Shown here: positions 29,482 through 55,700 of the stretch, piece after piece
Layout of the letters: the number at the start of each line of letters is the position of its first letter
Numbering within the stretch: position 1 is the stretch's first letter
Translations under genes and position numbers: made by a program
Source of the DNA: Microscilla marina ATCC 23134
GTDB lineage: Bacteria; Bacteroidota; Bacteroidia; Cytophagales; Microscillaceae
Direction of reading: 5' to 3'
Assembly (NCBI RefSeq): GCF_000169175.1
Contig: NZ_AAWS01000006.1
Coordinates: 71,192 to 135,191, forward strand
DNA length: 64,000 nt
Notes under the pieces: generated by a model
The model's input: the letters and a program-made list of their open reading frames with translations, nothing else
What the model was told of the DNA's origin: nothing
Databases searched by the model: none

Positions 29482-30057
29482 ATGAAACCGTTTATTCTTA
29501 CCGAATTTATTTTTATACTTTTAAGTATCACTGGTTTTGTTCTAAAAATAGCCTTGGTGTTTTGGGGTACTCCAGTGCTCATTATTGGCTTACTGGGTTT
29601 ATCCCTCATTTATTTTAGGCAAGGCTTGCGCCCTGCTTTACTCAATGATCAGCCTACTGCTGCCAGTGACCGCTTTTTTATTCCTCTTTACAAGTTAGGG
29701 TACCTTTTATTTGCCATCAACACCTTGGGGGTACTGTTCAAAAGTATGCTTTGGGACACTCGTTTTTTAGGCTTTAGTATGTTTATACTCATGGCATACA
29801 CAATATTTATTGCTGCTCAGGTACTCAAAGGAAAATTTTTTTTCAAAAAACTCCTGATCAAATCGATCTTCATTGCTACACTGGCACTTACCTTTTATCA
29901 AACACCTTTGTCTAAGTTGATCCAACTCTATTACCGTGACCAACCTGAGTTTGCCCAAAAGTTTATTGAATACCGAGAAAACCCTCAGAACGAAGTCAAG
30001 AAAAAAAACTATCTTGAAGCACGCAAAAAGATGTTAAACAAAAATGCAAAAAAATAA
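29482..30057 (+). CDS. hypothetical integral membrane protein (4-5 TM)
   Basis: 191 aa, hydrophobic helices; overlaps next gene start by 14 nt. Confidence 0.5.
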   Translation: MKPFILTEFIFILLSITGFVLKIALVFWGTPVLIIGLLGLSLIYFRQGLRPALLNDQPTAASDRFFIPLYKLGYLLFAINTLGVLFKSMLWDTRFLGFSMFILMAYTIFIAAQVLKGKFFFKKLLIKSIFIATLALTFYQTPLSKLIQLYYRDQPEFAQKFIEYRENPQNEVKKKNYLEARKKMLNKNAKK

Positions 30058-31858
30058 CGTCCTCTTTTATCTACATCAAGTATTAGCTTATGCTCTACAT
30101 AGCCTTTTTGCCTCTTGGTATAAGCTAATTACCCTCTTGGCTCTTTTGTGGTTTGGAGCACTGTTGGGGTGTTCTACAAAAACAACCAACCAGTCTCCTG
30201 TAGACTCTACTAAAACATCAGGCAAGGCAGCTTTGCAAGTAGACCAGGAAATGACCCAAAAACTAAAGTATGAAGTAGTATACAAACACCAAGGGGGATT
30301 TGCCAGAGTTTTTTTCAAAGGGAAATATGGATTTATTGACCAACAAAACAAAGAAGTAATTAAGCCATCTTATGATTGGGCAAGCGATTTTGAAGGTGGT
30401 TTGGCTATTGTGAATATAAACAACCAGGAAGGACTCATCGATACCCAAGGAAAAATAGTAGTGCCTATTGAGTTTCGTAGCATAGATATGCCTTCAGAGG
30501 GCTTAGCAAGAATAAGCGTAGAAGTAAAAGACAACAAAGACTCTTTAGCCAAACACTACTTATGGGGGTTTGTAGATACTAAAGGAGAAATTGTAGTATC
30601 GGCAACATACGATTATGCTGAATCTTTCAAACAAGGGCTTGCCAAAGTAGCCCAAACCCGTAAAGACGAACAAGGTTATACCCAGAAGGTTTTTGGGCTG
30701 ATAGACCGGGAAGGGCAAGCTGTTACCTCTCTCAAATATGGATTTATAGGTGATTTTCACGAGGGGTTTACTTTGGTTAGCTTAGACAATGGGCAATATT
30801 GGGGATTTATAGACCGTCAAGGCAAAGAAATTACGCCTATACAATATGATGAGGTACGGGACTTTAAAAATAACCGGGCATTGGTGAAAAAAGATGGCTA
30901 CTGGGGGGCCATAGACTCTACTGGACGCATCAGGGTAAACTTGAAATATCCTACTTTAGAAGACTTTGAAGGGCGATTTGCTCGCTATTTTGTATACAAC
31001 AAATATGGTTTTATAGACCAACAAGGCAATACACTTACTCCAGCAAAATATGACCAAACCCTTGATTTTTTGCAAGGGTTTGTGCAAGTAAAAAAAGACG
31101 GTAAATGGGGAGTAATCAACCAATTTGGAAAAGAAATTACGGCATTGAAGTATGATACAGTGCTTGCCTTTAGCGAACAACGGGCACTTGTGGGACAAAA
31201 TGGCTGGTATGGCTTTATCAACACTCAAGGCAAAGTAGTGGTTCCGTTGGTTTATCCCGAAGCCAGTAGTTTTGACAAAGGCAAAGCAAAGGTTACCTTT
31301 TTTGTGCCTAACGCTCAAGGCAAACAAATACAACACAAAGGTTTTGTAAACAAGCAAGGGCAACTTCTTATACCAGTAAACGAACAGTTGTATATAGTAA
31401 AACAAGGACCAAAGTATGGTGTGATGTATAAAGACACCCTGCGTACTGCCATAGCGTACGATTTTATCGAGGCATTACCAAACAAAACAGCACTTGCTGC
31501 AATCAAAAATAAAAAAACAGGCATATTGAGCCTTACTGGTAAACCACTTACAGCGTTTAAGTACGACCATTATCAACCATTGTCACACAACTTACTATTG
31601 GTTACTGCCAATAATAAATGGGGCATTATCAATCACCAGGGTAAGGAGGTAACCTCCCTCAAATATGACCAAATAATGCCTTTTACCCAAAAACGGGCTA
31701 GAGTAAAAATAGATAGCTTATGGGGATATATTACTCCAAAGGGCAAAGAAATTACACCTATACAGTATGGTTATGCCGAAGACTTTTTTGATGGGAAAGC
31801 ATCGGTAAGTCGTAATAAAAAAGCAAGCGTGATAGACCTAGCTGGAAAGGAACAATAA
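30044..31858 (+). CDS. WG-containing (KWG/Leptospira-type) beta-repeat protein, membrane anchored
   Basis: 604 aa; >12 repeats of YGFID.QGK.VI.P.YD.A.DF.EG.A.V...KWG. Confidence 0.75.
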   Translation: MQKNNVLFYLHQVLAYALHSLFASWYKLITLLALLWFGALLGCSTKTTNQSPVDSTKTSGKAALQVDQEMTQKLKYEVVYKHQGGFARVFFKGKYGFIDQQNKEVIKPSYDWASDFEGGLAIVNINNQEGLIDTQGKIVVPIEFRSIDMPSEGLARISVEVKDNKDSLAKHYLWGFVDTKGEIVVSATYDYAESFKQGLAKVAQTRKDEQGYTQKVFGLIDREGQAVTSLKYGFIGDFHEGFTLVSLDNGQYWGFIDRQGKEITPIQYDEVRDFKNNRALVKKDGYWGAIDSTGRIRVNLKYPTLEDFEGRFARYFVYNKYGFIDQQGNTLTPAKYDQTLDFLQGFVQVKKDGKWGVINQFGKEITALKYDTVLAFSEQRALVGQNGWYGFINTQGKVVVPLVYPEASSFDKGKAKVTFFVPNAQGKQIQHKGFVNKQGQLLIPVNEQLYIVKQGPKYGVMYKDTLRTAIAYDFIEALPNKTALAAIKNKKTGILSLTGKPLTAFKYDHYQPLSHNLLLVTANNKWGIINHQGKEVTSLKYDQIMPFTQKRARVKIDSLWGYITPKGKEITPIQYGYAEDFFDGKASVSRNKKASVIDLAGKEQ

Positions 31859-32084: not shown

Positions 32085-34382
32085 ATGAATAATATAGATA
32101 GCAATCGTCAGGTAAACCCACTCACGTCTGAAGAATTTACCGGACTGAAAATTAAGCCTCCCAAAGAAGTAGCTGCTGGCGCAGAAGCAGTCAAATCTGC
32201 TCTTCACCACATTGCCAAAGAATCGGGGATATTTAGAGGAAATCGTATACTACTCAACCTTAATCAAAAGAAAGGGTTTGACTGCCCTGGCTGTGCCTGG
32301 CCTGACCCCAAAGTTCGTTCAGCTGTTGCCGAATACTGCGAAAATGGCGCAAAGGCAGTAGCCGAAGAAACTACTCTAGAGCGGGTAGATCCTGCCTTTT
32401 TTAAAAAATACAGTGTAGGCGAGCTTTCCCAAAAATCTGATTATTGGTTAGGCAAAAGCGGTCGTATTACTCACCCTATGGTGCTCAAAACCAATAGCCA
32501 ACATTATGAACCCATCGCCTGGGAGGAAGCGTTTGCTATGATTGCTCAAGAACTCAATGACTTGAGCTCTCCTGATGAGGCTGTTTTTTATACTTCGGGA
32601 CGCACCAGCAACGAAGCTGCTTTTATGTATCAGTTATTTGTCAGGCAGTTTGGTACCAACAATTTGCCCGACTGCTCTAATATGTGTCACGAATCTAGCG
32701 GGGCTGCATTGAGCGAAACCTTGGGTATAGGCAAAGGCTCGGTTACATTAGAAGACTTTAATCACTCACAGGTAATACTGGTCATAGGACAAAACCCTGG
32801 TACCAACCACCCTCGCATGTTATCGGCATTACAGGAGGCCAAACAAAAAGGAGCTAAAATAATACATGTCAATCCTTTGCCCGAAACTGGGCTTCAGGCA
32901 TTTAAAAACCCTCAAAAAATAAGTGGTTGGATTGGCAAAGCAGATGCCTTAAGTGACATTTTTTTGCAGGTTCGAATCAATGGTGACATGGCTTTGCTGA
33001 AAGGCTTGCTAAAACTCATGGCAAACCAAGAAGCTGTAAACAAAGGTAGTGTGTTTGATCGGGAATTTATCGATCAATACACTGAGGGGTTTGAAGAATT
33101 TTGGGCTGATATTCAATCGGTAGATTTAGAACAATGTATTCGCGAAAGCGGTATTGACCCAACCCAACTTGAGGAAGCTGCCCAACTGTTATGCAACAAT
33201 GACCGCATTATTGTTTGTTGGGCAATGGGGCTTACCCAACACCCCAACTCGGTGGCAATGATTAAACAGGTAGTAAATCTACTACTGGCCAAAGGTAGCA
33301 TAGGGAAGCAAGGAGCAGGTACTTGTCCGGTGCGTGGACATAGCAACGTACAAGGTGATCGTACAATGGGCATTTGGGAAAAACCTCCTCAAGATTTATT
33401 AGACCAATTAGAAAAGCACTTTGGTTTTAAGCCCCCTTCGGCGCATGGATATGATACAGTAGATGCGATCAAAGCAATGTATGAAGGTAAAGGTAAAGTT
33501 TTTTTTGCGATGGGGGGCAACTTTTTATCAGCTACTCCTGACACTGTATATACAGCCCAGGCATTGCAAAACTGTCACCTTACAGTACAAGTATCTACCA
33601 AGCTTAATCGTTCGCACCTGGTTACCGGAAAGCAAGCCCTGATACTGCCTTGTATGGGTAGAACTGAACTAGATGTGCAACAATCAGGAAAACAGTTTGT
33701 CACTGTAGAAAACTCTATGGGGGTAGTACACCAAAGTAGAGGACGTATCAAACCAGCTTCGCCACACTTATTGAGCGAACCTGCCATTATAGCACGGTTG
33801 GCACAAGCCACGTTTGAACAAAGTAAAGTAGATTGGCAAGCAATGATGCATGATTATGATGTAGTACGCGACCATATAGAAGCAACTATTGAAGGATTTG
33901 AGCAATACAATGAACGGGTAAGGCAGCTCAATGGTTTTAACTTGCCCAATGTGGCGCGTGAACGTAAATTTATACAGGGCAAAGCATACTTTACAGTACA
34001 CCCTATACCTAAAAATACCCTTGCCAACGATGAGTTTATTATGATGACTATCCGCAGCCATGACCAGTTTAACACAACTATTTATGGGCTTGACGATCGT
34101 TACAGGGGCATTTACAATGAACGTCGGGTAGTGCTTATGAACCAGGAAGATATGAAAGAAATGGGACTGGTAAGCAAACAACAGGTAAACCTAAAAGGTA
34201 ACTATGAGGGAGAGCAAAGAGTGGCACCAGCGTTTTTGGTAGTACCTTTTGACATTCCTAAAAGATGCATTGCTACTTATTTCCCAGAAGCCAACGTATT
34301 GGTACCAATTAATAGCGTAGCCAAGAAAAGTAATACGCCTACCTCTAAGTATGTAGTGGTGAGTATTGAAAAAAGCATCTAA
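32085..34382 (+). CDS. molybdopterin oxidoreductase, FdhF/YdeP family (formate-dehydrogenase-like alpha subunit)
   Basis: 765 aa; N-terminal Cys cluster GFDCPGCAWPDP, ...SNMCHESSG..., molybdopterin-binding and C-terminal MopB barrel-like regions. Confidence 0.75.
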   Translation: MNNIDSNRQVNPLTSEEFTGLKIKPPKEVAAGAEAVKSALHHIAKESGIFRGNRILLNLNQKKGFDCPGCAWPDPKVRSAVAEYCENGAKAVAEETTLERVDPAFFKKYSVGELSQKSDYWLGKSGRITHPMVLKTNSQHYEPIAWEEAFAMIAQELNDLSSPDEAVFYTSGRTSNEAAFMYQLFVRQFGTNNLPDCSNMCHESSGAALSETLGIGKGSVTLEDFNHSQVILVIGQNPGTNHPRMLSALQEAKQKGAKIIHVNPLPETGLQAFKNPQKISGWIGKADALSDIFLQVRINGDMALLKGLLKLMANQEAVNKGSVFDREFIDQYTEGFEEFWADIQSVDLEQCIRESGIDPTQLEEAAQLLCNNDRIIVCWAMGLTQHPNSVAMIKQVVNLLLAKGSIGKQGAGTCPVRGHSNVQGDRTMGIWEKPPQDLLDQLEKHFGFKPPSAHGYDTVDAIKAMYEGKGKVFFAMGGNFLSATPDTVYTAQALQNCHLTVQVSTKLNRSHLVTGKQALILPCMGRTELDVQQSGKQFVTVENSMGVVHQSRGRIKPASPHLLSEPAIIARLAQATFEQSKVDWQAMMHDYDVVRDHIEATIEGFEQYNERVRQLNGFNLPNVARERKFIQGKAYFTVHPIPKNTLANDEFIMMTIRSHDQFNTTIYGLDDRYRGIYNERRVVLMNQEDMKEMGLVSKQQVNLKGNYEGEQRVAPAFLVVPFDIPKRCIATYFPEANVLVPINSVAKKSNTPTSKYVVVSIEKSI

Positions 34383-34503
34383 AAAAAATCATAAAAAACT
34401 CTGCTAAATATATTAACTTAGCAGAGTTAAATTTACTGTTGATCAATAGCAAAAATATAGCTGAATAGAAATCACTGGAGTAATGCTGTTCAACTGTATT
34501 TTA

Positions 34504-34665
34504 TTAATAGTAGTAATAATAAATAGCACCTCCACTGGTAGTATTATTACCTGCATCTGAAGACCCACCAGGATCTTCTGGGCAAGGGCATTTACCGCCT
34601 GAAGTTAGTGCTAACTGTGACTCTGACAGCTCACAATCTGTGAATGACTCGAATGAATTTTTCAT
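34504..34665 (-). CDS. candidate 53-aa precursor peptide with double-glycine-type leader (bacteriocin/RiPP-like)
   Basis: Not in ORF track (<60 aa). Manual translation: MKNSFESFTDCELSESQLALTSGG|KCPCPEDPGGSSDAGNNTTSGGAIYYYYY; leader fits L-S-x-x-(E/Q)-L-x-x-(I/T)-x-G-G; Cys/Gly/Ser-rich core with penta-Tyr C-terminus; 5' end overlaps putative start of divergent regulator. Confidence 0.35.
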   Translation of the reverse strand: MKNSFESFTDCELSESQLALTSGGKCPCPEDPGGSSDAGNNTTSGGAIYYYYY

Positions 34666-36287
34666 CTTTAAGCAACGAATTAAAAGTGTACAATATAAAT
34701 GGTGTATTTGTATTATTGGGTGTTTTATCAGGGTTCTTTACCTCAGCTAAAGCACAATCTGTAAATACATCTGAAATTTACAAAAAAAATTACGAAAAAG
34801 CTCGAAAACTCAGACACAAATACCCGGATAGTACAAAAATATTCGCCAACCGAGCTTTATTATCTGCCAGCAATAATGATCAAAGGGCTGAGGTATATTG
34901 CTTGCTTGGAAAAATGGCTAAAGCGCAAGAGTGGAACAATACGGCTATTCATTACTATCAACAATCGCTTAAGCTTTATACCAACGAAACAAGTAAAAAC
35001 AAAGTCAGACTGGCAATGATAGCTCCCTATCGTCGTCAGAAGAAGTATAACACTGCTTTAAGGTTAGCTAGGTGGGTAACAAAACATGCAGAAAAAAAAG
35101 GGGAACTGGGCAATCTCAAGAACAGTTATTCGTCGTTGGGGAATGTGTTTTATAACCTAAGCCAGGCAGACACTTTTTCTATCAAATGGATTGACTCTTC
35201 TTTACACTATCATCGCAAATCAATTGAGTTAAGGAAAAAATACTTCCCTCGCACTCAAGCTATGGCGTATTATAATTCTAGTTTTGCTTATGAAGCAATT
35301 TCGCCCGATTCTGCCATACATTATACACAATTAGCACTGCAACAACCTAACCTTGAGACTTACCATAAAGCTTTGTACAACATTCGGTTGGCGCAAATTT
35401 ATTACAAAAAAAAGGCGTTTAAATTTGGTAAATACTACTTGAATAAAGCTCAACAAATACACTATCAAGACCTGAATTTGCAAAACATGTATTGGTTTTA
35501 CAAAGCTATGATTGCTTTGTTTCAGCAAAACATTAGGGAGGTCAAGCAAGGATTCAATAAATATGATTCAGTCATTAGTTTGCTTCGTAACAACGCACAA
35601 AACATGGCTGACCAAAAAGGACTCACAGAAATGATCAGGGAAGATTACCAGGACGCCTGCAATGCTGCCATGCAAATGTACAAACGTACTAAAAATGAGG
35701 TGTATCTGGGGCTAATCAATCAATACAAAATCAAAAAACAGCAAGCAAGTAAAAAATACATTCGTACACATTTGCTTATAGAAAAACAAGACAGCCTACT
35801 ATTGAGTAAAGTATACTCAACCGCCGAACTGAGAATGACAAAACCTACTCTTGAAACCCAACTAAGTAACGAAAATACACAACGATGGATTTTTTGGGGC
35901 ATTATGATCATCCTCATCATGTTGGGCGGTATAGTTTGGTGGTATCAATTGCAGCAAAAACAGGCAATGCCTCCTCCTGCAGAACAACCGCAACTAATGA
36001 TTACCAACCAAAAGTTAAATACCAAACTATTGAGTTCTTTGGCAGAGCAAAACGAGTTTGAAAAAATATTATCATTGCTCAACACCCACCTGGGGAACGA
36101 TACCCTGAAACATTATACTCAAAACCTACCCAATGATGTCACATTGAGTGCACAAGAAAAAGTATACCTTAAACTACTGTCAGAAGGTTTTAGTCAGTGG
36201 GAGATTGGGCAAATGCTTAACAAGAACAAGCGAAGTATTATAGAGTGGGATAAAAAACTTAAGCAAAAGCTGAACAAAGTTCAATAA
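34644..36287 (+). CDS. TPR-repeat sensor with single TM segment and C-terminal LuxR-type HTH
   Basis: 547 aa; N-terminal hydrophobic segment, TPR-like repeats, TM (WIFWGIMIILIMLGGIVWWY), C-terminal LSAQEKVYLKLLSEGFSQWEIGQMLNKNKRSI. Confidence 0.65.
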   Translation: MTRMNFSSLSNELKVYNINGVFVLLGVLSGFFTSAKAQSVNTSEIYKKNYEKARKLRHKYPDSTKIFANRALLSASNNDQRAEVYCLLGKMAKAQEWNNTAIHYYQQSLKLYTNETSKNKVRLAMIAPYRRQKKYNTALRLARWVTKHAEKKGELGNLKNSYSSLGNVFYNLSQADTFSIKWIDSSLHYHRKSIELRKKYFPRTQAMAYYNSSFAYEAISPDSAIHYTQLALQQPNLETYHKALYNIRLAQIYYKKKAFKFGKYYLNKAQQIHYQDLNLQNMYWFYKAMIALFQQNIREVKQGFNKYDSVISLLRNNAQNMADQKGLTEMIREDYQDACNAAMQMYKRTKNEVYLGLINQYKIKKQQASKKYIRTHLLIEKQDSLLLSKVYSTAELRMTKPTLETQLSNENTQRWIFWGIMIILIMLGGIVWWYQLQQKQAMPPPAEQPQLMITNQKLNTKLLSSLAEQNEFEKILSLLNTHLGNDTLKHYTQNLPNDVTLSAQEKVYLKLLSEGFSQWEIGQMLNKNKRSIIEWDKKLKQKLNKVQ

Positions 36288-36826: not shown

Positions 36827-37036
36827 ATGATTAAAATGAAAAAGTTTGATACCCTAGAGGATGCTTTCCAACATTTTTTGGACAATGTTTACCCTAAACT
36901 AGCACCTGAAAGAAAGATTAAATATAAGGATGCTCGTTATGACTTTCTTAAAAGAAAATCTATCTCTCATAACAAAATAGAGTCTATTTTAGGGGACTAT
37001 GCAACCATTAAAATGGAAATTACATTCGAAGACTAA
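36827..37036 (+). CDS. small hypothetical protein (69 aa)
   Basis: ORF followed by palindrome tgtcaattgaca and a hairpin+T-run (~37094-37133); in AT-rich low-density region. Confidence 0.35.
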   Translation: MIKMKKFDTLEDAFQHFLDNVYPKLAPERKIKYKDARYDFLKRKSISHNKIESILGDYATIKMEITFED

Positions 37037-44592: not shown

Positions 44593-47500
44593 TTGATTAA
44601 CTCAATGAATATTAAAACAGCTATTTACATTCTATTACTGTTTATTACTTCATCATCAGGCTTTGCACAACTACAACATTCACCTCATATCAAGCAATAT
44701 ACTACCGACAATGGATTGCCTCATAACATTGGGTTTGATGTAATCCAAGACAGCAAAAATTATATTTGGCTTGGTACCGATGATGGGTTGGTACGTTTTA
44801 ATGGTAAGCGCTTTAAGACTTATCGAAGCGCTGATGGCTTACTGAGCAATTATATCATCAACCTGACAGAAAGCAAAGAGGGTAAACTATGGATTGGCTC
44901 GTGGAAAGGTGGGCTCAACTATTTATACAACGACTCTATTTTTACCCCTAAACTTGATTACCCACTTTTTCGAGTATCTTATGTAGGTGTTCAGGGTGAT
45001 AAACTGTGGCTATCTGACCGTAGGTCTACACTATACCCTTATACTTATAAAAACAATGAATGGAAGTTTGGCCATCGTAAAAAATCCACTTTCCTGTACC
45101 AAACCAAGGATTCTTTCCCTAGATACAGCCATTATATACCTCCGTCTGAATACTCAAAATCAGGTTATACACGAAAACTAGATTATACCCAAGCCTATCT
45201 TACTACCACCAAAGCTATGTTATTATTTGGTTCACTTCCAGGAGTATGGCAATACCATAATGACACAACTTTCAGTCGTTTTTACCCTAATATAATCAAA
45301 AATGATACAGTATACGACATTTCTCAAGACGCTAACCAAACTTATTGGGTAAGCTGTAAAGGTAAAATTTTAAAAATAGATGCGGCAAAAAATGTAGAGG
45401 TGATTCAAAAGGGATTACCCAATCAAAATATTACCAATGTAGAGGTGACTTCTTCAGGTAAAATCTATTTTATTACAAACTATATCAATCTCAACAACCG
45501 GGGATTTTATAGCTATGACCCTACCACAGCCACTACGGTTGACCTTAAATCCAAACTTGGATTAAAGGTATTGCCAGTAGCAGTAAAAGTAGATCACGAA
45601 GATAATGTGTGGCTTATTACCAATGGTGAAGGAGTGTACTGTATGTTATCTCATCCTTTTACCAATTATGACAAACAAGATGGACTTACAAATATTTTTG
45701 TAAATACAATTAATGAAGATAAAGAGGGAAACATTTATGTAGGTACTATCAATGGGGTATTTGTTTATAAAAACAATGTTTTTTCAAGAAAGTATTTACT
45801 TGGGAAAAATGCTTCAGAGGAAGTAAACAGCATAATAAAAGATAAAAACCAATCATTATTGATTAGCATTTTACAAAATATTAAGCAAGGTTCACAAAGT
45901 CACCTATTCAGGAATACAACGAAAAAAGTTGAAAAACTCAATATCCAGTCGTTTAGTAAAAGCCCATACCTTGATAGTCAAAATAAAATTTGGACATTTC
46001 AAGATAATACTATTGTTTTTTGTGATTATTCTGAGACCAACTCTTTTTATACCAAGAGCTGCAAACTTGGTAAAGACCTAATGATCCATCAAGTATTAGA
46101 GTACCAAGGCAAACATTGGTTAGCTACTAATAAAGGGCTTCTTGCCTTTAAGCATACCATTTTAAGCAATAATAGTCTGGAGATTACCCTTACAGATACT
46201 CTTAATATAGCTGATGGTTTGAGCAGTAATTTTATAAACCAAGTAGCCATAGGTAAAAAAGGAGCACTATGGATAGGCACCAAAGAAGGAATATGTAAGT
46301 GGGTCAATGGAACCATAGCGTGTTTTGGCACTTCAGACGGGCTGGTATCTAACAACTGCAACCAGGTACTGGTAGATCATCAAGGTATTATATGGGTGGG
46401 TACTTCTAAAGGCTTGTCTCGTTTTGATGGCAAGCAATTTATCAACTATACCCATAAAAATGGACTCATTGCTTCTGATATTAACTGTTTGTTTTTAAGC
46501 AATAAAAAACAACTTTGGATAGGTACAAGTAAAGGAGTATCCAGGTTAGACCTTAGTAAACCCTTTAAGAAGGCGGCACCGCCCAAACTATACATAGAAG
46601 ATATTCAGGTCAACGGCATTGATCAGAGATTAAATACTCCCCTTCAGGTTAAATATCACTCTTCCCTTAAGTTGTACTTCTCAGCATTGACTTATACCTA
46701 CAACGAAGGGGTTCGCTATCAGTACCGACTCAAGGGAGATAAGTGGCAAGAAACCAGCCTAGCTTTTGTAGAGTACAGCACCCTTACCAAAGGAACCTAT
46801 ACGTTTGAAGTAAGAGCCAAGAAGTTTAACAGTGTCTGGTCTGCATCTACTAAAATAGTATTTGAGGTAATCCCTCCTTTTTGGGATACCTGGTGGTTCA
46901 AAGTATTGGTAGGTTTAGGCTTTGTTCTACTGGTATACGGCATTGTCAAGTGGCGGTCGCAACAACTGATAAAAGATAAACTTAAGCTAGAACAAGTAGT
47001 AGTACAACGAACTTTTGAGCTTGCCCAACAAAAAGAAGAAATTGCTTCACAAGCAGAAAAGCTTAAAGAAATGGATCAAATAAAATCTCATTTTTTCTCT
47101 AATGTTTCGCACGAACTTCGTACGCCACTTACTCTCATTATTGGTCCTGCCGAACAAATACTTCATTCGGCTGAAAGCACTACCACCCAATCTCACTCAA
47201 AGTCTATATTAAGCAATGCCCAACGCCTTTTAAAGCTGATTAACCAACTGTTAGACTTCTCTAAACTAGAAAGCGGCAAACTGATTTTACAACTTAAAAC
47301 AGGTAAATTTCACGTTTTTTTGAAAAACATTATCTATTCTTTCGAGTTGCTTGCCAATCAAAAAAACATTGGTCTTAAGTTGCTATTGCATCAAGAGGAG
47401 ATAATGGGTGAGTTTGACCATGACAAGCTTGAAAAAGTGTTTTTTAATTTATTGTCCAACGCACTGAAATTTACTCCCGAAAATGGCTTGGTTACAATAG

Positions 47501-48621
47501 AAGTAAAACAAAAAGAGGAGATGGTACAAATCAAGGTATCGGATACAGGGATTGGTATCCCTCCTCAGTCACTGCCTTTTATATTTGACAGGTTTTATCA
47601 GGTAGATGGATCACAAACCAGAACACACGAAGGTACTGGTATTGGGTTGTCACTGGTAAAAGAACTGTTGGAACTACACGGAGGCAATATAAAAGCAAGC
47701 AGTGAAGTGGATAAAGGCACCACATTTTTTATTCAACTCCCCATTGTTTGTCACTCTTCAAAAGCAATGGCTCCTACAAAAGAAACAGCTCTCACGCTGA
47801 CCGACCCAGTAGATATAAATACACAAGAAGATCAAACACCACCTCCTTTGCCAGTTGAGGCAAGTCATACCGTATTGGTGGTAGAAGATAACCATGAACT
47901 CCGACAGTTTATAAGGACAGAACTAGCCGTTACTTATCAGGTAATAGAAGCAGCAGATGGCGTAGAAGGTATTGAAAAAGCTAGCAACCAACTGCCCGAC
48001 TTGATTATAAGTGACCTGATGATGCCAAAAGCTGATGGGTTGGAGTTATTAAGAACACTTAGAAATAACCCACAAACTTGCCACATACCTATCATTATTT
48101 TATCGGCAAAGGCATCTTTTGAGAGTAAAATTACTGGATTAGAAACTGGTGGAGACGACTATCTCACAAAACCGTTTAGTCCTAGAGAGCTTGTGCTTAG
48201 AATAAAAAATACACTGGAAAGAAGGGAAAAACTAAAAGAGGCATTTATGCAGCAAATGGCCAAGCCAGAGCTTGTAGTAGAACCCTCTCAGGTAACGGCT
48301 ACTTCTATGGATGAAGTTTTTTTGACAAAAGCGCTTGATACAGTAGAAGAACACCTCAATAATACAGGGTTTGATGTTTCAGCATTTAGCAAAGAAATGG
48401 GCATGAGTCAATCGGGCTTGTTCAAAAAACTCAAGGCTATTACTAATTTATCTACCACTGAGTTTATTCGTACTATTAGGCTTAAGCGAGCGGCTTCGTT
48501 GATTAAACAAAAAAGTGGCCGTATCGAAGAAATTGCGTTTCAGGTAGGTTTTAATGATGTATCTTATTTTAACCGTTGTTTCAAAAAACAATTTGGAGTA
48601 ACCCCAAAAAAATACCAGTAA
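44593..48621 (+). CDS. hybrid two-component system protein: periplasmic beta-propeller/Y_Y_Y sensor - TM - HisKA/HATPase - receiver - AraC HTH (copy 1)
   Basis: 1342 aa; H-box SHELRTPLT, G-box DTGIGIP, receiver VLVVEDNHELRQF...DLMMP, AraC helix-turn-helix at C-terminus. Confidence 0.85.
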   Translation: MINSMNIKTAIYILLLFITSSSGFAQLQHSPHIKQYTTDNGLPHNIGFDVIQDSKNYIWLGTDDGLVRFNGKRFKTYRSADGLLSNYIINLTESKEGKLWIGSWKGGLNYLYNDSIFTPKLDYPLFRVSYVGVQGDKLWLSDRRSTLYPYTYKNNEWKFGHRKKSTFLYQTKDSFPRYSHYIPPSEYSKSGYTRKLDYTQAYLTTTKAMLLFGSLPGVWQYHNDTTFSRFYPNIIKNDTVYDISQDANQTYWVSCKGKILKIDAAKNVEVIQKGLPNQNITNVEVTSSGKIYFITNYINLNNRGFYSYDPTTATTVDLKSKLGLKVLPVAVKVDHEDNVWLITNGEGVYCMLSHPFTNYDKQDGLTNIFVNTINEDKEGNIYVGTINGVFVYKNNVFSRKYLLGKNASEEVNSIIKDKNQSLLISILQNIKQGSQSHLFRNTTKKVEKLNIQSFSKSPYLDSQNKIWTFQDNTIVFCDYSETNSFYTKSCKLGKDLMIHQVLEYQGKHWLATNKGLLAFKHTILSNNSLEITLTDTLNIADGLSSNFINQVAIGKKGALWIGTKEGICKWVNGTIACFGTSDGLVSNNCNQVLVDHQGIIWVGTSKGLSRFDGKQFINYTHKNGLIASDINCLFLSNKKQLWIGTSKGVSRLDLSKPFKKAAPPKLYIEDIQVNGIDQRLNTPLQVKYHSSLKLYFSALTYTYNEGVRYQYRLKGDKWQETSLAFVEYSTLTKGTYTFEVRAKKFNSVWSASTKIVFEVIPPFWDTWWFKVLVGLGFVLLVYGIVKWRSQQLIKDKLKLEQVVVQRTFELAQQKEEIASQAEKLKEMDQIKSHFFSNVSHELRTPLTLIIGPAEQILHSAESTTTQSHSKSILSNAQRLLKLINQLLDFSKLESGKLILQLKTGKFHVFLKNIIYSFELLANQKNIGLKLLLHQEEIMGEFDHDKLEKVFFNLLSNALKFTPENGLVTIEVKQKEEMVQIKVSDTGIGIPPQSLPFIFDRFYQVDGSQTRTHEGTGIGLSLVKELLELHGGNIKASSEVDKGTTFFIQLPIVCHSSKAMAPTKETALTLTDPVDINTQEDQTPPPLPVEASHTVLVVEDNHELRQFIRTELAVTYQVIEAADGVEGIEKASNQLPDLIISDLMMPKADGLELLRTLRNNPQTCHIPIIILSAKASFESKITGLETGGDDYLTKPFSPRELVLRIKNTLERREKLKEAFMQQMAKPELVVEPSQVTATSMDEVFLTKALDTVEEHLNNTGFDVSAFSKEMGMSQSGLFKKLKAITNLSTTEFIRTIRLKRAASLIKQKSGRIEEIAFQVGFNDVSYFNRCFKKQFGVTPKKYQ

Positions 48622-49689: not shown

Positions 49690-51060
49690 ATGAAACGACA
49701 GTTATCACTCCTCTTAGCAATGGCATGCTTTTGCATAGCTGGTTATGCTCAAACTAATGGTAGTTTTGAAAACCTTACAGGAACCAACCACGGTTTTGCT
49801 TTTTCAGCAGGGCAAGTAGTTGGCTGGAAACAATCGCATGGAACACCCAGCATTGCAGGTGGAGCGCCTGGTCAGGGAAACCGTTCCGCTTGGATGTGGT
49901 CTTACTCTGGCAGAGGCGAGGGTATTGTTCAACCGTATAGTTTCGCGGCAGGGCGTACTTATACCGTAAGCTTTTGGGTAAGAACCAATAATCCTGATGG
50001 ACAGTTTTATATAAAAGCTGCCAATGGTGTACCCAATGGAACCTCTAGTAGCATACCATCGGTCAGTAGTCAAAAAACGATCTACAGCGCAGGATTGGTT
50101 TTTCCAAACTGGACCAAAAGAACCGTTACATTTACAGCTACCAGCAACTACTCTCAGCTGTGGATTTACCCCCAGCTTAATAGTTATCCAAGCAATGGAC
50201 AAGCAGAGTTGATGATGGACGGGATCAGTATTTCTACGTGCACTCCTGTTTCTGTATATGTACCTAACTATAGCTTTGAGAGTTTGACAGGTACTAACCA
50301 TGGTTTTGCTTTTTCGGCTGGGCAAGTAACTGGCTGGAAACAATCGCACGGTACGCCGAGTATTGGTGGAGGAGCTACCGGACAAGGAAGTCGTTCGGCG
50401 TGGATGTGGTCTTACTCTGGCAGAGGCGAAGGCATTGTGACGAATGTGGGGCTTCAAAGTGGTAAAACTTATAAGATCAGGTTCTGGGTAAGAACCAATA
50501 ATCCTGATGGACAGTTTTATATAAAAATTGCCAACAATGTGCCTAGCGGAACATCTACCTCATCTACTATACCATCGGTAAGTAGCCAACAAACCTTATA
50601 TACTTCTGGCTTGAACTTCTCAAACTGGACAGAGAAAACAATTATTTTTAGGGCTAATAACAACTACTCTCAGTTATGGATTTACCCTCAACTTAACAGT
50701 TACCCAAGCAATGGGCAAGCAGAGTTGATGGTAGATGGAATCAGAATTGAGACTGTTTGCCACAAAAAACCTGTGATATGGCCATTGCCTATCAAAGATA
50801 TTAAAGAACTAAAAGTAGCTGTCTATCCTAACCCTACTACTGAACGTATTTCGGTCACTTTACCTACCGAGACAGAGGAAGCTACCATCACGCTTTATGA
50901 CTTGGTCAGTGGTAGAAAAGTAGGCACATTTAAGGCTACTCAAATAGACAACGAATGGAGCATACCTGAGCACATCAAAGGTGGGTTGTACCAAATGGTA
51001 ATCACTGATGCTAAAAACAATGCTACCAAATCTATGAGGTTAGTAGTAAACCGTAAATAA
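49690..51060 (+). CDS. secreted protein with two tandem ~163-aa beta-sandwich-like (CBM/lectin-like) domains and T9SS C-terminal sorting domain
   Basis: 456 aa; signal peptide; duplicated units NGSFENLTGTNHGFAFSAGQV.GWKQSHGTPSI...; C-terminus KVAVYPNPTTERISVTL...LYDLVSGRKV...GLYQMVITD typical Por/T9SS CTD. Confidence 0.75.
   Translation: MKRQLSLLLAMACFCIAGYAQTNGSFENLTGTNHGFAFSAGQVVGWKQSHGTPSIAGGAPGQGNRSAWMWSYSGRGEGIVQPYSFAAGRTYTVSFWVRTNNPDGQFYIKAANGVPNGTSSSIPSVSSQKTIYSAGLVFPNWTKRTVTFTATSNYSQLWIYPQLNSYPSNGQAELMMDGISISTCTPVSVYVPNYSFESLTGTNHGFAFSAGQVTGWKQSHGTPSIGGGATGQGSRSAWMWSYSGRGEGIVTNVGLQSGKTYKIRFWVRTNNPDGQFYIKIANNVPSGTSTSSTIPSVSSQQTLYTSGLNFSNWTEKTIIFRANNNYSQLWIYPQLNSYPSNGQAELMVDGIRIETVCHKKPVIWPLPIKDIKELKVAVYPNPTTERISVTLPTETEEATITLYDLVSGRKVGTFKATQIDNEWSIPEHIKGGLYQMVITDAKNNATKSMRLVVNRK
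49756..50760 (+). repeat. in-frame tandem duplication (2 x ~490 bp) inside the T9SS protein gene
   Basis: unit 1 ~49756-50241, unit 2 ~50266-50760; long stretches identical at nucleotide level (e.g. tggatgtggtcttactctggcagaggcga; aaccaataatcctgatggacagttttatataaaa). Confidence 0.8.
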
Positions 51061-52354: not shown

Positions 52355-52719
52355 CTTCCAAAACAGGCAAATAATGCTGGTGTAGCATTATTTGCCTGTT
52401 TTCATTCATTAAATATACAGTACTGTCCACTGCTGTTTAGCCAGCCATCAAGTCTAACACCTTAACCACTAAATATCTAACTTATTAACCTCAAAAAAAA
52501 CGAATCAAGTTCGGCTTGACACATCTAATACCAAAACTTCCAGTAAACAACCGCTTTAAACGAGCTCTAAAAGAATTTTAAAGCTGAAACAGCAAAAGTT
52601 CAAGAAAAACCACTAGTGTTATTTATTGGGCAACAATAGATATACCTGCCTTGTTGTATGTAGTTATTTTGAATAACTTTATCTATCAAGCAAAACTACT
52701 ACTATTTACTACTTCTTTG

Positions 52720-55700
52720 ATGAGAATTACTGTAACTATAGCTTTACTATCAACCCTTTTACTAAACGGCTGTGGGGTGTTTGCCCAGCCCCAGTTCAAC
52801 GTAAAACACTATACAACTGACAACGGGTTGCCCCATAACATAGGCTATGGGCTACTGCAAGACCGTAAGGGGTATATTTGGATTGGTACTGATGATGGCT
52901 TGGCACGATTTGATGGAAAGAGTTTTAAAGTCTATCGTACTGATGATGGCTTATTGAGCAATTATATCATCGATATAGTAGAAGATCGCCAAGGAGTACT
53001 GTGGTTGGGTAGTTGGAAAGGTGGGGTTAACTGTATAAAGGACGATTCAGTATTTACACCGACGCTTAACAAACCTCTGTTTAGGGTAGCCTATATTGCC
53101 AAGGATAAAAATCAACTATTTTTATCAGATTTAGGTAATACAGTACGTCATTACACCCTCAATAAAAACCAATGGCTCAATCGTCCTTCTGGCTTAGTTT
53201 ACCTTACTCACGACACTACTCTTACCTATGCGCAGAAGAAACAAACTAAAAAACTGATCAATGTACTCAATGTGCAAATACACTTGGCAAGTGATGGTAC
53301 ACCTTTATTTTTTGGCAAATTCCCTGGAGTTTGGCAATACCAAAACGACCAAATTTTTACTCCTTTTTGCAGCAACATTATTCGCAATGATTCTATTACT
53401 CACCTTTCGCAAGATACCCAAGGAAGGTACTGGTTGGGGACTCAAGGCAAAATACTGATAATTGATGCCCAAAAGCAATTGGATAAAACATACCATCATT
53501 TGCCCAATGAAAGTATTTATAGCATAAAAGTAGCCTCTTCGGGCGTGATTTACTTTCTCACTAACTATCACAAATTTAGTCATCGAGGGTTTTATAGCTA
53601 CAACCCAACCACTCAAGAACTAACTGATTTAAAAAAAGCCCTCAAGCTCAAAACAACCCCTGTTGCCATAGAAATAGACAAAGAAGATAATGTATGGCTC
53701 ACTACCAACGGCGATGGAGTGTATTGTATTAGTCCTTCATTGTTTCAACACTACGATCAAAAAGATGGCTTACCCAATGTCTTTATCAGAAATGTAAAAG
53801 AAGATAATGCTGGTAACATATACGTAGGTACTATTGATGGTTTGGTGCGCTACCAAAACGGGAAATTTGTCAATCAACAAGTACTTGACCATTCCTCTCG
53901 CTATCAAGTACTTAGAATGTTTTTAGATCGCCGCCACAATGTTTTGACATCAGTAGCTCCTTCAGAGTTGAATACTTCCAATAACATATTTTTGTATAAA
54001 GTAGCACACAAGACATCAACAAAACTCTACAATGCTTCTTTTTATAACCCATCATATGTAGACCAACAAAACCGCCTCTGGAGCTTTACTAACAAAAGTA
54101 TTTTTTGGTATCCTTACCCAAAAAAATCACCGTTCAAAGTCCCTTATTATTATTTTAAAAAAGGGCTGATAGTCTCACAAATATTTGAGCATGAGGGGCA
54201 ACACTGGCTTGCCTCTAACCAAGGTCTACTGGCTTTTGATACGCATAAGCGTCCAAATTTACGTTTTTTAGATACCCTCAACACTCGCCAGGGCTTGATT
54301 AGTAATGATGTAAATGTGGTAAAAAAAGCGCCTGATGGGGCATTATGGATAGGTACCAAAACAGGGTTGTGTCGCCTTAAAAATGGACAAATCACTTGTT
54401 TTACTCAAGCAAAAGATGGATTGATACATAATAACTGTACCCAACTAGAGTTTGACCGATATAACCGTTTATGGATAGGCACTCTTCAGGGTTTATCGTG
54501 TTTTGATGGACAAAGCTTTATCAATTATAGCCATAAAACAGGACTCATTGCCTCTGACATTAACTGCTTGTTTGCTGATAGTAAACAAAAACTTTGGGTA
54601 GGTACAAGCAAAGGCATATCGGTGTTAGACATTCGTGCATCGCTCAAAAGAATTCCCCTTGCCAAGGTATACATAGACCAGCTTCTACTGAATGATGTGC
54701 CACAAGAGATTCATTCTACACTAAGGGTTAATTATCCCTCTAACCTCAAAATCTATTTTAATGCATTGAGCTATACTTACCCCAAGGGCATAAGGTACCA
54801 ATACCGTTTGAATAAGGGCAAGTGGAAAAACGTCCCCCAGCAAGTAATAGAGTACAACGCTTTTGAACAGGGGAATTATATTATTGAGATAAGGGCTAAA
54901 AAATTTAACAGTGGATGGTCACTGCCTAAGAACATTTTGCTCATTGTACGCCCCCCTATGTGGCTTACCTGGTGGGCAATCAGCTTGTACATTATAGTGG
55001 GGTTATTTATGATGTGGGGGGTGATCAGGTGGCGGTCAGCCACATTGGTAAAAGAAAAACTAAAGCTAGAACAGGTGGTCGTTCAACGAACTTATGAGCT
55101 TGCCCAGCAAAAAGAAGAAATTGCTTCACAAGCCGAAAAACTCAAAGTATTGAACCAGGTACAGTCCAACTTTTTTTCTGGCATTTCGCACGAGTTAAGG
55201 ACCCCACTCACGCTTATTGTAGAACCTGCCGAAAAGCTACTACAATATAACCAAGAAGAGCCTGGGAAAAGGTATACACAAACGATACTTGGCAATGCCC
55301 AACGATTGCTCAGACTTATCAATCAATTGATGGATTTCTCGAAATTGGAAAGTGGTAAAATGACTTTGCAGCTTAGTAACAACAGTTTATACCAGTTGTT
55401 GGTAGAGGTAATAGCATCGTTTGAACTGCTTGCCCAGCAAAAAAACATTGAGCTTAAGCTTACTGCATCAAATCAGGCTTTACACTATAAGTTTGATCAC
55501 GACAAGGTCGAGAAAGTAGTTTTTAATTTAATTAGCAATGCCCTAAAGTTTACCCCAACACAAGGAAACATAGAGGTTCATTTGTGGCAAAGCCCTGATG
55601 AGGTAAAGATCACTGTTACTGATACAGGCATTGGCATTGCTCCTGCAGATTTGCCTTTTGTATTTGATCGTTTTTATCAGGTAGATGGCTCTACTACCAA

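What the first reader, a model, noticed from the sequence alone, without database searches (positions are those of the whole stretch)
34504..34665. Unannotated 53-aa ORF with a double-glycine leader and a Cys/Gly-rich, penta-tyrosine-tailed core, divergent from a TPR-LuxR regulator
Minus-strand translation gives MKNSFESFTDCELSESQLALTSGG / KCPCPEDPGGSSDAGNNTTSGGAIYYYYY. The last 12 leader residues, LSESQLALTSGG, fit the double-glycine leader pattern (L-S-x-x-E/Q-L-x-x-I/T-x-G-G) of class II bacteriocins and many Bacteroidetes RiPP precursors. The core is small, rich in Cys, Pro and Gly, and ends in an unusual YYYYY. The ORF fills an otherwise empty 260-bp gap. It sits head-to-head with a membrane-anchored TPR + LuxR-HTH regulator (34644-36287), which could be a peptide-responsive sensor. 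It is directly downstream of a YdeP/FdhF-type oxidoreductase. No C39-peptidase ABC exporter or modification enzyme lies in the window, and the 5' ends of the two divergent genes overlap by ~20 nt, so this remains tentative.
Basis: partly seen in the sequence, partly recalled or inferred. Interest (0 to 1): 0.6.

Follow-up and report, generated by a model that had tools for sequence, protein, structure and literature searches.

The report
Conserved double-glycine peptide paired with regulator
The 53-codon reading frame is a real, conserved gene of the marine bacterium Microscilla marina; it encodes a small acidic peptide with an export-and-cleavage leader and always sits head-to-head with one membrane-bound regulator, so it looks more like a signalling pair than an antibiotic, though its function is untested.

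Summary
The ORF at 34504-34665 (-) exists as described. RefSeq already lists it as a hypothetical protein of Microscilla marina. It is a real gene. Fifteen homologues (42-63 aa) were found in Microscillaceae genomes and marine metagenomes, all in frame. Codons 1-29 give pN/pS 0.28, against more than 1.3 in four of the five other frames. A minus-strand terminator follows the gene, and one lineage keeps its stem through compensatory changes.

The leader fits the double-glycine consensus: L-12, Q/E-8, L-7, hydrophobic -4, G-1. Homologues hit GG-leader models only below their cut-offs. After the cleavage site, only C-P-C-P is invariant. The rest of the core is anionic (net -2 to -8), low-complexity and hypervariable. 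The poly-Tyr tail occurs in the Microscilla subclade only.

In 14 of 14 loci the gene lies 17-21 nt from the GTG start of an equally clade-restricted regulator: signal peptide, TPR superhelix, one transmembrane helix, weak LuxR-type HTH. The reported 5' overlap is a longest-ORF artefact. No C39/ABC exporter, rSAM or immunity gene lies in the window or the sequenced flanks (up to 10 kb a side) of any locus.

Best reading: an exported signal peptide sensed by that regulator. A RiPP or bacteriocin with remote enzymes is the main rival.

The parts
34504..34665 (-). Precursor peptide gene, 53 aa plus stop (RefSeq WP_157558373.1)
   Evidence: Translation. Exact match in NCBI. Fifteen in-frame homologues. 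pN/pS 0.28 in this frame.
34594..34665 (-). Leader, residues 1-24 (MKNSFESFTDCELSESQLALTSGG), with the predicted double-glycine cleavage site after G24
   Evidence: F8, E12, L13, L18 and G24 are invariant and G23 nearly so. Sub-threshold TIGR01847 matches in three homologues place that model's last position at G24. Consensus L(-12)x3E(-8)L(-7) and hydrophobic -4 as given in PMC6363468.
34579..34590 (-). C-P-C-P motif (residues 26-29), the only invariant part of the predicted mature peptide
   Evidence: Invariant in alignment A4 and in the five further homologues.
34507..34578 (-). Variable acidic low-complexity core, ending in five Tyr codons (34507-34521)
   Evidence: Length and sequence are hypervariable and always in frame. 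Net charge -2.3 here and -2 to -8 across the family. Tyr count varies from 5 to 7, and the tail is absent in the AO1-C/UBA11690 subclade.
34397..34428 (-). Intrinsic terminator of the peptide transcript: 13-bp stem followed by a T-run on the minus strand. It lies between the peptide gene and the convergent YdeP gene.
   Evidence: Terminator scan. The stem is conserved in all 12 loci with complete sequence across it, and L006 keeps it through a compensatory change (ACTCTGCCA/TGGCAGAGT).
34686..34702 (.). Conserved DNA block CCATTTATATTGTACAC (minus strand). It covers regulator codons 1-6 and lies -21 to -37 from the peptide ATG. It is a candidate core promoter (TATATT) or operator and part of an imperfect palindrome at 34679-34700.
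   Evidence: Identical in 10 of 13 loci, synonymous sites included; the other three differ by one substitution or one inserted codon. Other synonymous sites are near saturation. Palindrome found. Its function is inferred, not shown.
34686..36287 (+). Divergent regulator, 533 aa from the conserved GTG: signal peptide (residues 1-24, AKA/Q), periplasmic TPR superhelix (~29-335), long helix, transmembrane helix (~401-421), and a cytoplasmic LuxR/FixJ-like HTH (~485-530).
   Evidence: Start codon. Hydropathy. AF2 model. Foldseek hits to TPR proteins. C-terminal profile hits PdeL, SdiA, RcsB and ComA HTH domains at E 0.01-1. GerE is sub-threshold in every orthologue scanned.
32085..34382 (+). FdhF/YdeP-family molybdopterin oxidoreductase, convergent neighbour. 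This is context only; a functional link is not established.
   Evidence: TIGR01701 at 935 bits. Present in the same position in every locus long enough to show it. The surrounding genes are equally syntenic.

Best explanation
The ORF is a genuine small gene for a double-glycine-leader precursor peptide. It founds a family restricted to Microscillaceae, with at least 15 members. The family forms an obligate two-gene module with a divergently transcribed one-component regulator. That regulator's TPR domain is predicted to face the periplasm, and its LuxR-like HTH is predicted to face the cytoplasm.

Proposed mechanism, all steps inferred:
1. The monocistronic transcript starts about 20 nt upstream of the ATG, from a promoter inside the regulator's first codons, and ends at its own terminator.
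2. An unlinked C39-peptidase ABC exporter recognises the 24-residue leader, cleaves after G24 and exports the peptide.
3. The product is an anionic, disordered peptide of about 3 kDa with an N-terminal x-C-P-C-P. That motif could form a disulfide or bind a metal.
4. This peptide is the ligand of the regulator's TPR groove. Binding changes HTH activity at the shared 20-nt control region. The pair would act as an autoinducing or periplasmic-state signalling circuit, not as an antibiotic.

Shown: gene reality, leader consensus, family distribution, strict pairing, the regulator's fold and predicted topology, and the absence of linked biosynthetic genes.
For: Gene reality:
- Homologues share 44-94% identity and all stay in frame despite many indels.
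- pN/pS is 0.28 in the annotated frame. Four other frames give 1.3-2.5, and the wobble-sharing antisense frame gives 0.43.
- Against the 95%-identical MAG there are 4 synonymous changes, 3 non-synonymous changes and one in-frame Tyr codon.
- A conserved terminator follows the gene, with a compensatory stem change in L006.

Leader:
- L13, L18 and G24 are invariant; position 17 is Q or E; position -4 is T, V, I or L. This matches the ComA/LahT recognition rule.
- Six of 10 members hit TIGR04149, 4 hit NF038167 and 3 hit TIGR01847. The TIGR01847 matches end at G24.

Pairing:
- The peptide gene lies 17-21 nt from the regulator's GTG in 14 of 14 loci, with regulator identity down to 45-50%.
- Both families are tiny and share the same distribution: 12 regulator clusters among 5.8 billion proteins, and 4 species genomes.

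Receptor plausibility:
- The regulator has a signal peptide plus a single transmembrane helix.
- The model shows a TPR superhelix whose structural neighbours bind extended peptides, such as LGN and the Rap pheromone receptors.
- The C-terminus resembles LuxR-type HTH domains.

Not bacteriocin-like:
- Cores carry net charge -2 to -8 and hold 0-3 hydrophobic residues in 11 of the 12 tabulated (7 in P0003).
- No ABC, C39, rSAM or immunity gene lies in the window or the sequenced flanks (up to 10 kb a side) of any locus (and the gene tables).

Core divergence: the core changes much faster than the leader or the regulator, as pheromone specificity regions do.
Against: - There is no expression, cleavage or binding data.
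- No C39 transporter was identified, and the rest of the genome could not be searched.
- No curated GG-leader model reaches its cut-off, and the window's own peptide hits none.
- Two homologues have A-G instead of G-G at the cleavage site.
- Hypervariability of the core may only mean lack of constraint.
- Pairing with a regulator is equally expected if the regulator merely controls the peptide gene.
- The HTH assignment is weak (E 0.002-0.01 in Pfam, below cut-off).
- A 3-kDa peptide secreted across both membranes would need a route back to a periplasmic sensor.
Confidence: 0.4

Rival explanations
1. It is a precursor of a RiPP or bacteriocin. The tailoring enzymes (for example an rSAM/SPASM maturase acting on the two Cys) and the C39 exporter would be encoded elsewhere in the genome. 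The adjacent regulator would only switch the gene on and off and would not sense the peptide.
For: - The best model matches are to TIGR04149 (rSAM-modified RiPP family, up to 22 bits) and to NF038167 (CTB-family bacteriocin).
- The pattern of conserved leader, invariant Cys motif and hypervariable core is typical of RiPP precursors.
- Dispersed precursors served by one remote enzyme are known, for example the prochlorosins (general knowledge; PMC10783134, listed).
Against: - All scores are below cut-off.
- No maturase, immunity or transporter gene lies in the sequenced flanks (up to 10 kb a side) of any of 14 loci, nor in the 64-kb window.
- There is one copy per genome and no paralogue in the window.
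- The cores are strongly anionic and non-amphipathic.
- Apart from C-P-C-P no residue that could be modified is conserved.
Confidence: 0.25
2. It is a periplasmic redox- or metal-responsive peptide. The C-P-C motif, known as a redox-active or Cu(I)/Zn-binding motif in Mia40 and P1B-ATPases, would report thiol-oxidation or metal status. The acidic tail would add cation binding. The TPR regulator would read that state, possibly in connection with the neighbouring YdeP oxidoreductase.
For: - C-P-C-P is the only invariant core element.
- The tails are rich in Asp, Glu and Asn.
- YdeP is convergent and shares the terminator region in all loci.
- Redox genes (thioredoxin, AhpC/Redoxin, MsrB) lie nearby in several loci.
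Against: - The role of the motif rests on analogy from general knowledge only.
- YdeP synteny is no stronger than that of all the surrounding genes in this clade.
- No metal-transport or metal-resistance gene is in the module.
Confidence: 0.1
3. It is a small cytoplasmic protein that is never exported. It could be an anti-regulator binding the cytoplasmic HTH domain. The conserved N-terminus would then be a helix with a different role that only resembles a GG leader.
For: No exporter is linked. No GG-leader model cut-off is reached. The tight divergent arrangement fits a regulator/modulator pair.
Against: Conservation falls exactly on the C39 recognition positions, and the TIGR01847 matches end at G24. 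The segment after G24 is disordered, acidic and hypervariable, which is unlike a folded binding partner.
Confidence: 0.1
4. It is a spurious ORF. The region would be conserved only as the promoter or 5' region of the regulator.
For: The regulator's promoter must lie within or beyond this ORF, because the two start codons are only 20 nt apart.
Against: - Substitutions concentrate at third codon positions of this frame (pN/pS 0.28 against more than 1.3 in four other frames).
- All indels are in frame across 15 homologues of 42-63 aa.
- Start, stop and terminator are conserved.
Confidence: 0.02

Closest known systems
Double-glycine-leader pheromones and class II bacteriocins of Gram-positive bacteria (ComC/CSP with ComAB and ComDE; plantaricin A type)
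   Same: A short precursor with an L(-12)x3[E/Q](-8)L(-7)..[hydrophobic](-4).GG leader. The predicted route is cleavage and export by a C39-peptidase ABC transporter. The gene sits next to its presumed sensor/regulator. The mature region is hypervariable.
   Different: The partner is not a histidine kinase plus response regulator. It is a single protein: TPR, transmembrane helix, LuxR-like HTH. No transporter is linked. The mature peptide is strongly anionic. The host is a Gram-negative bacterium of the phylum Bacteroidota.
RRNPP peptide-receptor quorum sensing (Rap, NprR, PlcR, PrgX, Rgg)
   Same: A TPR-repeat receptor is encoded next to a small peptide gene. Rap proteins appear among the structural neighbours of the regulator model.
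   Different: RRNPP receptors are cytoplasmic, with an N-terminal HTH or none. Their peptides use Sec export and are re-imported by Opp. Here the TPR is predicted to be periplasmic, the HTH is C-terminal and LuxR-like, and the peptide has a GG leader. No sequence homology was detected.
TIGR04149 (GG_sam_targ_CFB) rSAM-modified RiPP precursors and the bacteroidetocins of Bacteroidota
   Same: They occur in the same phylum and have a GG leader of similar sequence. TIGR04149 is the best-scoring curated model for 6 of 10 family members.
   Different: Scores stay below cut-off (22 bits or less against 25). No rSAM/SPASM maturase or PCAT is adjacent, whereas such clusters normally carry one (PMC10352776). 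The core composition is different.
GG-leader signalling peptides exported by PCATs in Gram-negative bacteria (for example the HetC-dependent peptide export in Nostoc, PMC10986499)
   Same: They are a precedent for peptidase-ABC export of a non-antibiotic signalling peptide in a bacterium with two membranes.
   Different: The peptide, receptor and biology are unrelated. There the transporter is identified; here it is not.
Widespread Bacteroidota regulators with the architecture signal peptide, TPR, transmembrane helix, LuxR-like HTH (for example L021 1269-2888)
   Same: The domain order is the same, with 25% identity over the TPR region.
   Different: Those distant relatives lie in tandem and have no divergent peptide gene. 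The Microscillaceae branch is the only one seen here with a dedicated peptide partner.

Membership tests
Double-glycine (GG) leader peptides, substrates of C39-peptidase ABC transporters | N-terminal leader of about 15-30 residues ending in Gly-Gly, Gly-Ala or Gly-Ser | tested here: met
   The 24-residue leader ends in G23-G24. G24 is invariant. G23 is present in 13 of 15 homologues; two have A-G.
Double-glycine (GG) leader peptides, substrates of C39-peptidase ABC transporters | Recognition consensus Leu(-12)-x3-Glu(-8)-Leu(-7), with a hydrophobic residue at -4 | tested here: met
   L13 (-12) and L18 (-7) are invariant. Position -8 is Q or E in all members. Position -4 is T, V, I or L. The rule is taken from PMC6363468. 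Gln replaces Glu in most members.
Double-glycine (GG) leader peptides, substrates of C39-peptidase ABC transporters | Score at or above the curated cut-off of a leader model (TIGR01847, 15.7 bits) | tested here: not met
   The window's peptide gives no hit at E up to 10. The best homologue scores 14.6 bits, with model positions 2-15 aligned to residues 11-24.
Double-glycine (GG) leader peptides, substrates of C39-peptidase ABC transporters | Cognate C39-peptidase ABC transporter encoded nearby | tested here: not met
   None in the 64-kb window. None in the sequenced flanks (up to 10 kb a side) of the related loci (for the loci held at that point; gene tables).
Double-glycine (GG) leader peptides, substrates of C39-peptidase ABC transporters | C39-peptidase ABC transporter anywhere in the genome, and cleavage after GG | not testable with these tools
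TIGR04149 rSAM-modified RiPP precursors | Model score of at least 25 bits | tested here: not met
   The best score is 22.0 bits, from the homologue in L014. The window's peptide gives no hit.
TIGR04149 rSAM-modified RiPP precursors | Adjacent radical-SAM/SPASM maturase | tested here: not met
   No Radical_SAM hit in the window ORFs scanned or in the precomputed Pfam tables of the loci.
Class II (unmodified) bacteriocins | Cationic, amphiphilic or hydrophobic mature peptide with a linked immunity gene | tested here: not met
   Predicted mature peptides carry net charge -2 to -8. Eleven of the 12 tabulated hold 0-3 hydrophobic residues; P0003 holds 7. No small membrane-protein gene is in the module.
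RRNPP peptide receptors | Cytoplasmic TPR receptor homologous to Rap/NprR/PlcR, with a Sec-exported, Opp-imported peptide | tested here: not met
   The fold is TPR and Rap proteins are structural neighbours. However, the protein has a signal peptide and one transmembrane helix and a C-terminal LuxR-like HTH, and the peptide has no Sec signal.
LuxR/FixJ (GerE, PF00196) HTH regulators | GerE domain at or above the gathering score (23.5 bits) | tested here: inconclusive
   Every orthologue scanned scores 15.8-18.1 bits, at the same C-terminal position. The profile search against PDB returns PdeL, SdiA, RcsB and ComA HTH domains at E 0.01-1. The fourth helix appears to be missing.
Tetratricopeptide-repeat proteins | TPR superhelix fold | tested here: met
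   In the AF2 model, residues 30-360 have block-mean pLDDT of 59-96, mostly above 80. The top Foldseek hits are TPR domains (LGN, consensus TPR, OGT) with probability 1.00. One sequence-level TPR lies at residues 66-103.

The most novel reading that the evidence does not exclude
The module is a peptide autoinducer system of a kind not described before, and the first in Bacteroidota. A GG-leader, PCAT-exported anionic CPCP peptide would be read directly in the periplasm by a TPR domain. That domain is fused through a single membrane helix to a LuxR-type DNA-binding domain. This would be a one-protein, transmembrane counterpart of the RRNPP and ComDE circuits. Lineage-specific core sequences would act as pherotypes.
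Probability: 0.25. Interest if true: 0.7.

Novelty: new variant of a known kind. Interest (0 to 1): 0.45.

Why it matters
Peptide-based cell-cell signalling is well known in Firmicutes. It is almost undocumented in Bacteroidota, where GG-leader peptides are usually assumed to be bacteriocins or RiPPs.

This family offers a compact test case of two genes with no biosynthetic baggage. The receptor architecture (periplasmic TPR, transmembrane helix, LuxR-like HTH) is widespread in the phylum, and the literature searches made here found no characterised member. If the peptide proves to be the ligand, it would give that regulator class its first signal. It would also show a new way to wire a peptide signal to transcription.

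If it is not the ligand, the finding still adds a validated small gene and a new GG-leader family that current curated models miss.

Tried and rejected
- NCBIfam and Pfam scans of the window's own peptide found nothing, even at E up to 10.
- phmmer against 1.84 billion representatives gave two true homologues and two spurious hits to Ala/Gly/Thr-rich repeat proteins (P0004, P0006). I rejected the latter as compositional.
- The metagenome DNA scan with the peptide profile found nothing. The rescan with the regulator added one more pair and two distant relatives without a peptide gene.
- Rfam and tRNA scans of the window were empty, so the region shows no known RNA element.
- I looked for a second GG-leader ORF in the window and found none.
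- I looked for ABC or C39 signatures in the window and the 15 loci held at that point and found none. One LSGGQ string in L015 lies in a frame full of stop codons.
- Literature searches found no description of this family or module. They covered M. marina with double-glycine/C39/RiPP, TIGR04149, TPR+LuxR+Bacteroidetes, and a poly-Tyr precursor.
- I considered the 22-bp imperfect palindrome at 34679-34700 as a lux-box-like operator. Only its right half is conserved across lineages, so it stays a candidate only.
- I considered the Tyr tail as the functional signature. I rejected it as family-defining because 8 of 15 members lack it.
- I considered a functional link to YdeP. It cannot be separated from the general synteny of this clade.

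Full report
**Observation**

Among 1620 start-to-stop ORFs of 25-130 aa in the window, counting every in-frame start, it is the only one with a complete L-x3-[EQ]-L-x2-[VILT]-x-G-G leader.

The exact protein is already in RefSeq as WP_157558373.1, hypothetical protein of Microscilla marina. The organism belongs to Bacteroidota, Cytophagales, Microscillaceae. "Unannotated" is therefore not correct for the current public annotation.

**It is a real gene**

A MAG of an uncultured Microscilla, about 95% identical in DNA, carries the same ORF. The differences are 4 synonymous changes, 3 non-synonymous changes and one extra in-frame Tyr codon.

An exhaustive phmmer search and a profile search found further members in marine and coral metagenomes. 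Scanning upstream of regulator homologues found more. In all there are 15 homologous sequences of 42-63 aa. Every one is open in the same frame despite many indels.

Over the ungapped first 29 codons of seven lineages:
- pS is about 0.55, near saturation, and pN is 0.15, so pN/pS is 0.28 in the annotated frame.
- Four of the other five frames give 1.3-2.5.
- The antisense frame that shares wobble positions gives 0.43.

A 13-bp-stem hairpin with a T-run on the minus strand lies 75 nt after the stop, at 34428-34397. Its stem is kept in all 12 lineages with complete sequence across it. L006 keeps it through a compensatory pair of changes. The spurious-ORF reading is effectively excluded.

**Anatomy of the peptide**

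Invariant positions in the 10-member alignment are M1, F8, T9, E12, L13, L18, G24 and C26-P27-C28-P29. G23 is nearly invariant. Of these, T9 varies in two of the five further homologues (S in L017, K in L019).

Counted back from G24, this gives L at -12, Q/E at -8, L at -7, T/V/I/L at -4, G (A in two members) at -2, and G at -1. [quoted passage not shown]

The window's own sequence hits no curated model. Its relatives do, though always below cut-off:
- TIGR04149: 6 of 10 members, best 22.0 bits against a cut-off of 25.
- NF038167: 4 of 10 members.
- TIGR01847: 3 of 10 members, best 14.6 bits against 15.7. Model positions 2-15 of 15 align to residues 11-24, so the model's terminal Gly-Gly falls on G23-G24.

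The leader is therefore GG-type, but the family is not covered by existing models.

Beyond C-P-C-P the predicted mature peptide has these properties:
- It is low-complexity (Asp, Glu, Asn, Pro, Gly, Ser, Thr) and variable in length.
- It is always anionic, with net charge -2 to -8.
- Eleven of the 12 cores tabulated hold 0-3 hydrophobic residues; P0003 holds 7.
- It diverges far faster than the leader or the neighbouring regulator. For L013 against L016 the regulator is 86% identical, the leader 67% and the core 31%.

The poly-Tyr tail has 5-7 Tyr, sometimes with a final Trp, and is encoded by TAT/TAC runs. It occurs only in the Microscilla subclade. The AO1-C, UBA11690 and Cytophagaceae-MAG subclade ends in acidic residues or Gly. 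The tail is therefore not the family signature.

**The partner**

In every locus where the sequence is available (14 of 14), the peptide gene lies head-to-head with one regulator gene. The two start codons are 17-21 nt apart. This holds even where the regulators share only 45-50% identity.

The regulator's conserved start is GTG, which gives the N-terminus VYNING. In 5 of 13 loci no upstream in-frame start exists.

The regulator family is as narrow as the peptide family. There are 12 clusters among 5.8 billion proteins and four species genomes: uncultured Microscilla, Marine bacterium AO1-C, a Cytophagaceae MAG and Microscillaceae UBA11690.

Its architecture is as follows:
- A signal-peptide-like N-terminus ending in AKA/Q, and a single strong transmembrane segment at residues 401-421.
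- An AF2 model (mean pLDDT 73.5; most blocks of the repeat region score 80-96) showing a helical-repeat superhelix at residues 29-335.
- PDB neighbours of that superhelix are TPR domains that bind extended peptides: LGN, consensus TPRs and OGT. Rap and RapH pheromone receptors rank lower in the list.
- A C-terminal segment of about 90 residues that matches GerE below threshold in every orthologue scanned.
- As a profile, that segment retrieves almost only LuxR/FixJ HTH domains (PdeL, SdiA, RcsB, ComA) at E 0.01-1.

Distant relatives (25% identity) with the same domain order exist in other metagenomes. They lie in tandem and have no divergent peptide gene.

**Control region**

The block CCATTTATATTGTACAC (34686-34702) covers the regulator's first six codons and lies 21-37 nt upstream of the peptide ATG. 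It is identical in 10 of 13 loci, synonymous sites included. The other three differ by one substitution or one inserted codon, while synonymous sites elsewhere are near saturation.

It contains a TATATT hexamer placed suitably for a 5' UTR of about 20 nt. It also forms part of an imperfect palindrome at 34679-34700, but only the right half of that palindrome is conserved. A role as promoter or operator is an inference.

**What is absent**

Pfam scans of nearly all non-nested window ORFs of at least 110 aa found no C39 peptidase, ABC transporter, rSAM, lanthipeptide or other tailoring enzyme, and no immunity-like gene. The same holds for a Walker-A/LSGGQ scan of the window and the loci held at that point and for the precomputed Pfam tables of the loci.

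YdeP (TIGR01701, 935 bits) is convergent in all loci. So are the WG-repeat gene and other neighbours, so this is clade-wide synteny and not specific linkage.

**Interpretation**

The data establish a conserved two-gene module: a GG-leader peptide plus a TPR, transmembrane, LuxR-like regulator. The most economical mechanism has three steps. An unlinked PCAT cleaves and exports the peptide. The anionic CPCP peptide binds the periplasmic TPR groove. The HTH then acts on the shared 20-nt control region. I give this 0.4.

The rivals are:
- A RiPP or bacteriocin with remote enzymes, with the regulator as a mere switch (0.25). The TIGR04149 similarity and the leader/core conservation pattern support it. 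The anionic core and the lack of any linked enzyme in 14 loci argue against it.
- A redox- or metal-responsive CPC peptide (0.1). This overlaps with the main model.
- A non-exported modulator of the regulator (0.1).
- A spurious ORF (0.02).

**Comparison and novelty**

The module works like the ComC/ComDE or RRNPP peptide circuits but is a member of neither. It fails the cut-offs of TIGR01847 and TIGR04149. It lacks the gene-cluster context of the bacteroidetocins and of Bacteroidales RiPP clusters, where GG precursors normally sit beside a PCAT (PMC10352776).

Literature searches found no description of the family or of this pairing. I class it as a new variant of a known kind. It is of moderate interest. 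Interest would rise substantially if the peptide is shown to be the regulator's ligand.

Noticed in passing
window 44593-48621 (+), 49690-51060 (+), 52651-56721 (+): Two large hybrid two-component sensors (Reg_prop/Y_Y_Y propeller, HisKA, HATPase_c, receiver, AraC HTH) lie either side of a stretch that holds a secreted carbohydrate-binding protein with a T9SS C-terminal sorting domain. The arrangement looks like a polysaccharide-utilisation regulatory unit.
   Followed up: no
window 34397-34428; L006 and other loci: The terminator stem ACTCTGCTAA/TTAGCAGAG between the peptide gene and YdeP is conserved almost to the base in lineages whose synonymous sites are saturated. L006 shows a compensatory variant. 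In the AO1-C subclade a second hairpin (CCTCT..AGAGG plus a T-run) sits directly after the peptide stop codon.
   Followed up: partly
window 36827-37036 (+): A 69-aa ORF lies about 0.5 kb downstream of the regulator. An ORF of 66-69 aa is called at the same relative position in L001, L002, L006 and L016. It has no Pfam hit. Whether it belongs to the module is unknown.
   Followed up: no
window 29482-30057 (+) and 30044-31858 (+): A 191-aa hydrophobic ORF overlaps by 14 nt a 604-aa protein made of 12 WG_beta_rep repeats. The pair is conserved upstream of YdeP in all longer loci.
   Followed up: no
L006 10308-13705: In one relative, genes with CTD12, MC8 and DUF2326 domains are inserted between YdeP and the WG-repeat gene. 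This looks like a small defence or conflict island that the window lacks.
   Followed up: no
window 60245-62185 (-): A 646-aa protein built almost entirely of leucine-rich repeats.
   Followed up: no
window 34507-34521 and homologues: The number of terminal Tyr codons varies from 5 to 7 between close relatives, through TAT/TAC repeats. This fits replication slippage in a triplet run.
   Followed up: partly
L021 33-1214 and 1269-2888: Two tandem paralogues of a TPR, transmembrane, LuxR-like regulator occur in an unrelated metagenome contig, next to a transposase-like ORF. This shows that the receptor architecture occurs outside the Microscillaceae clade, without a peptide partner.
   Followed up: partly
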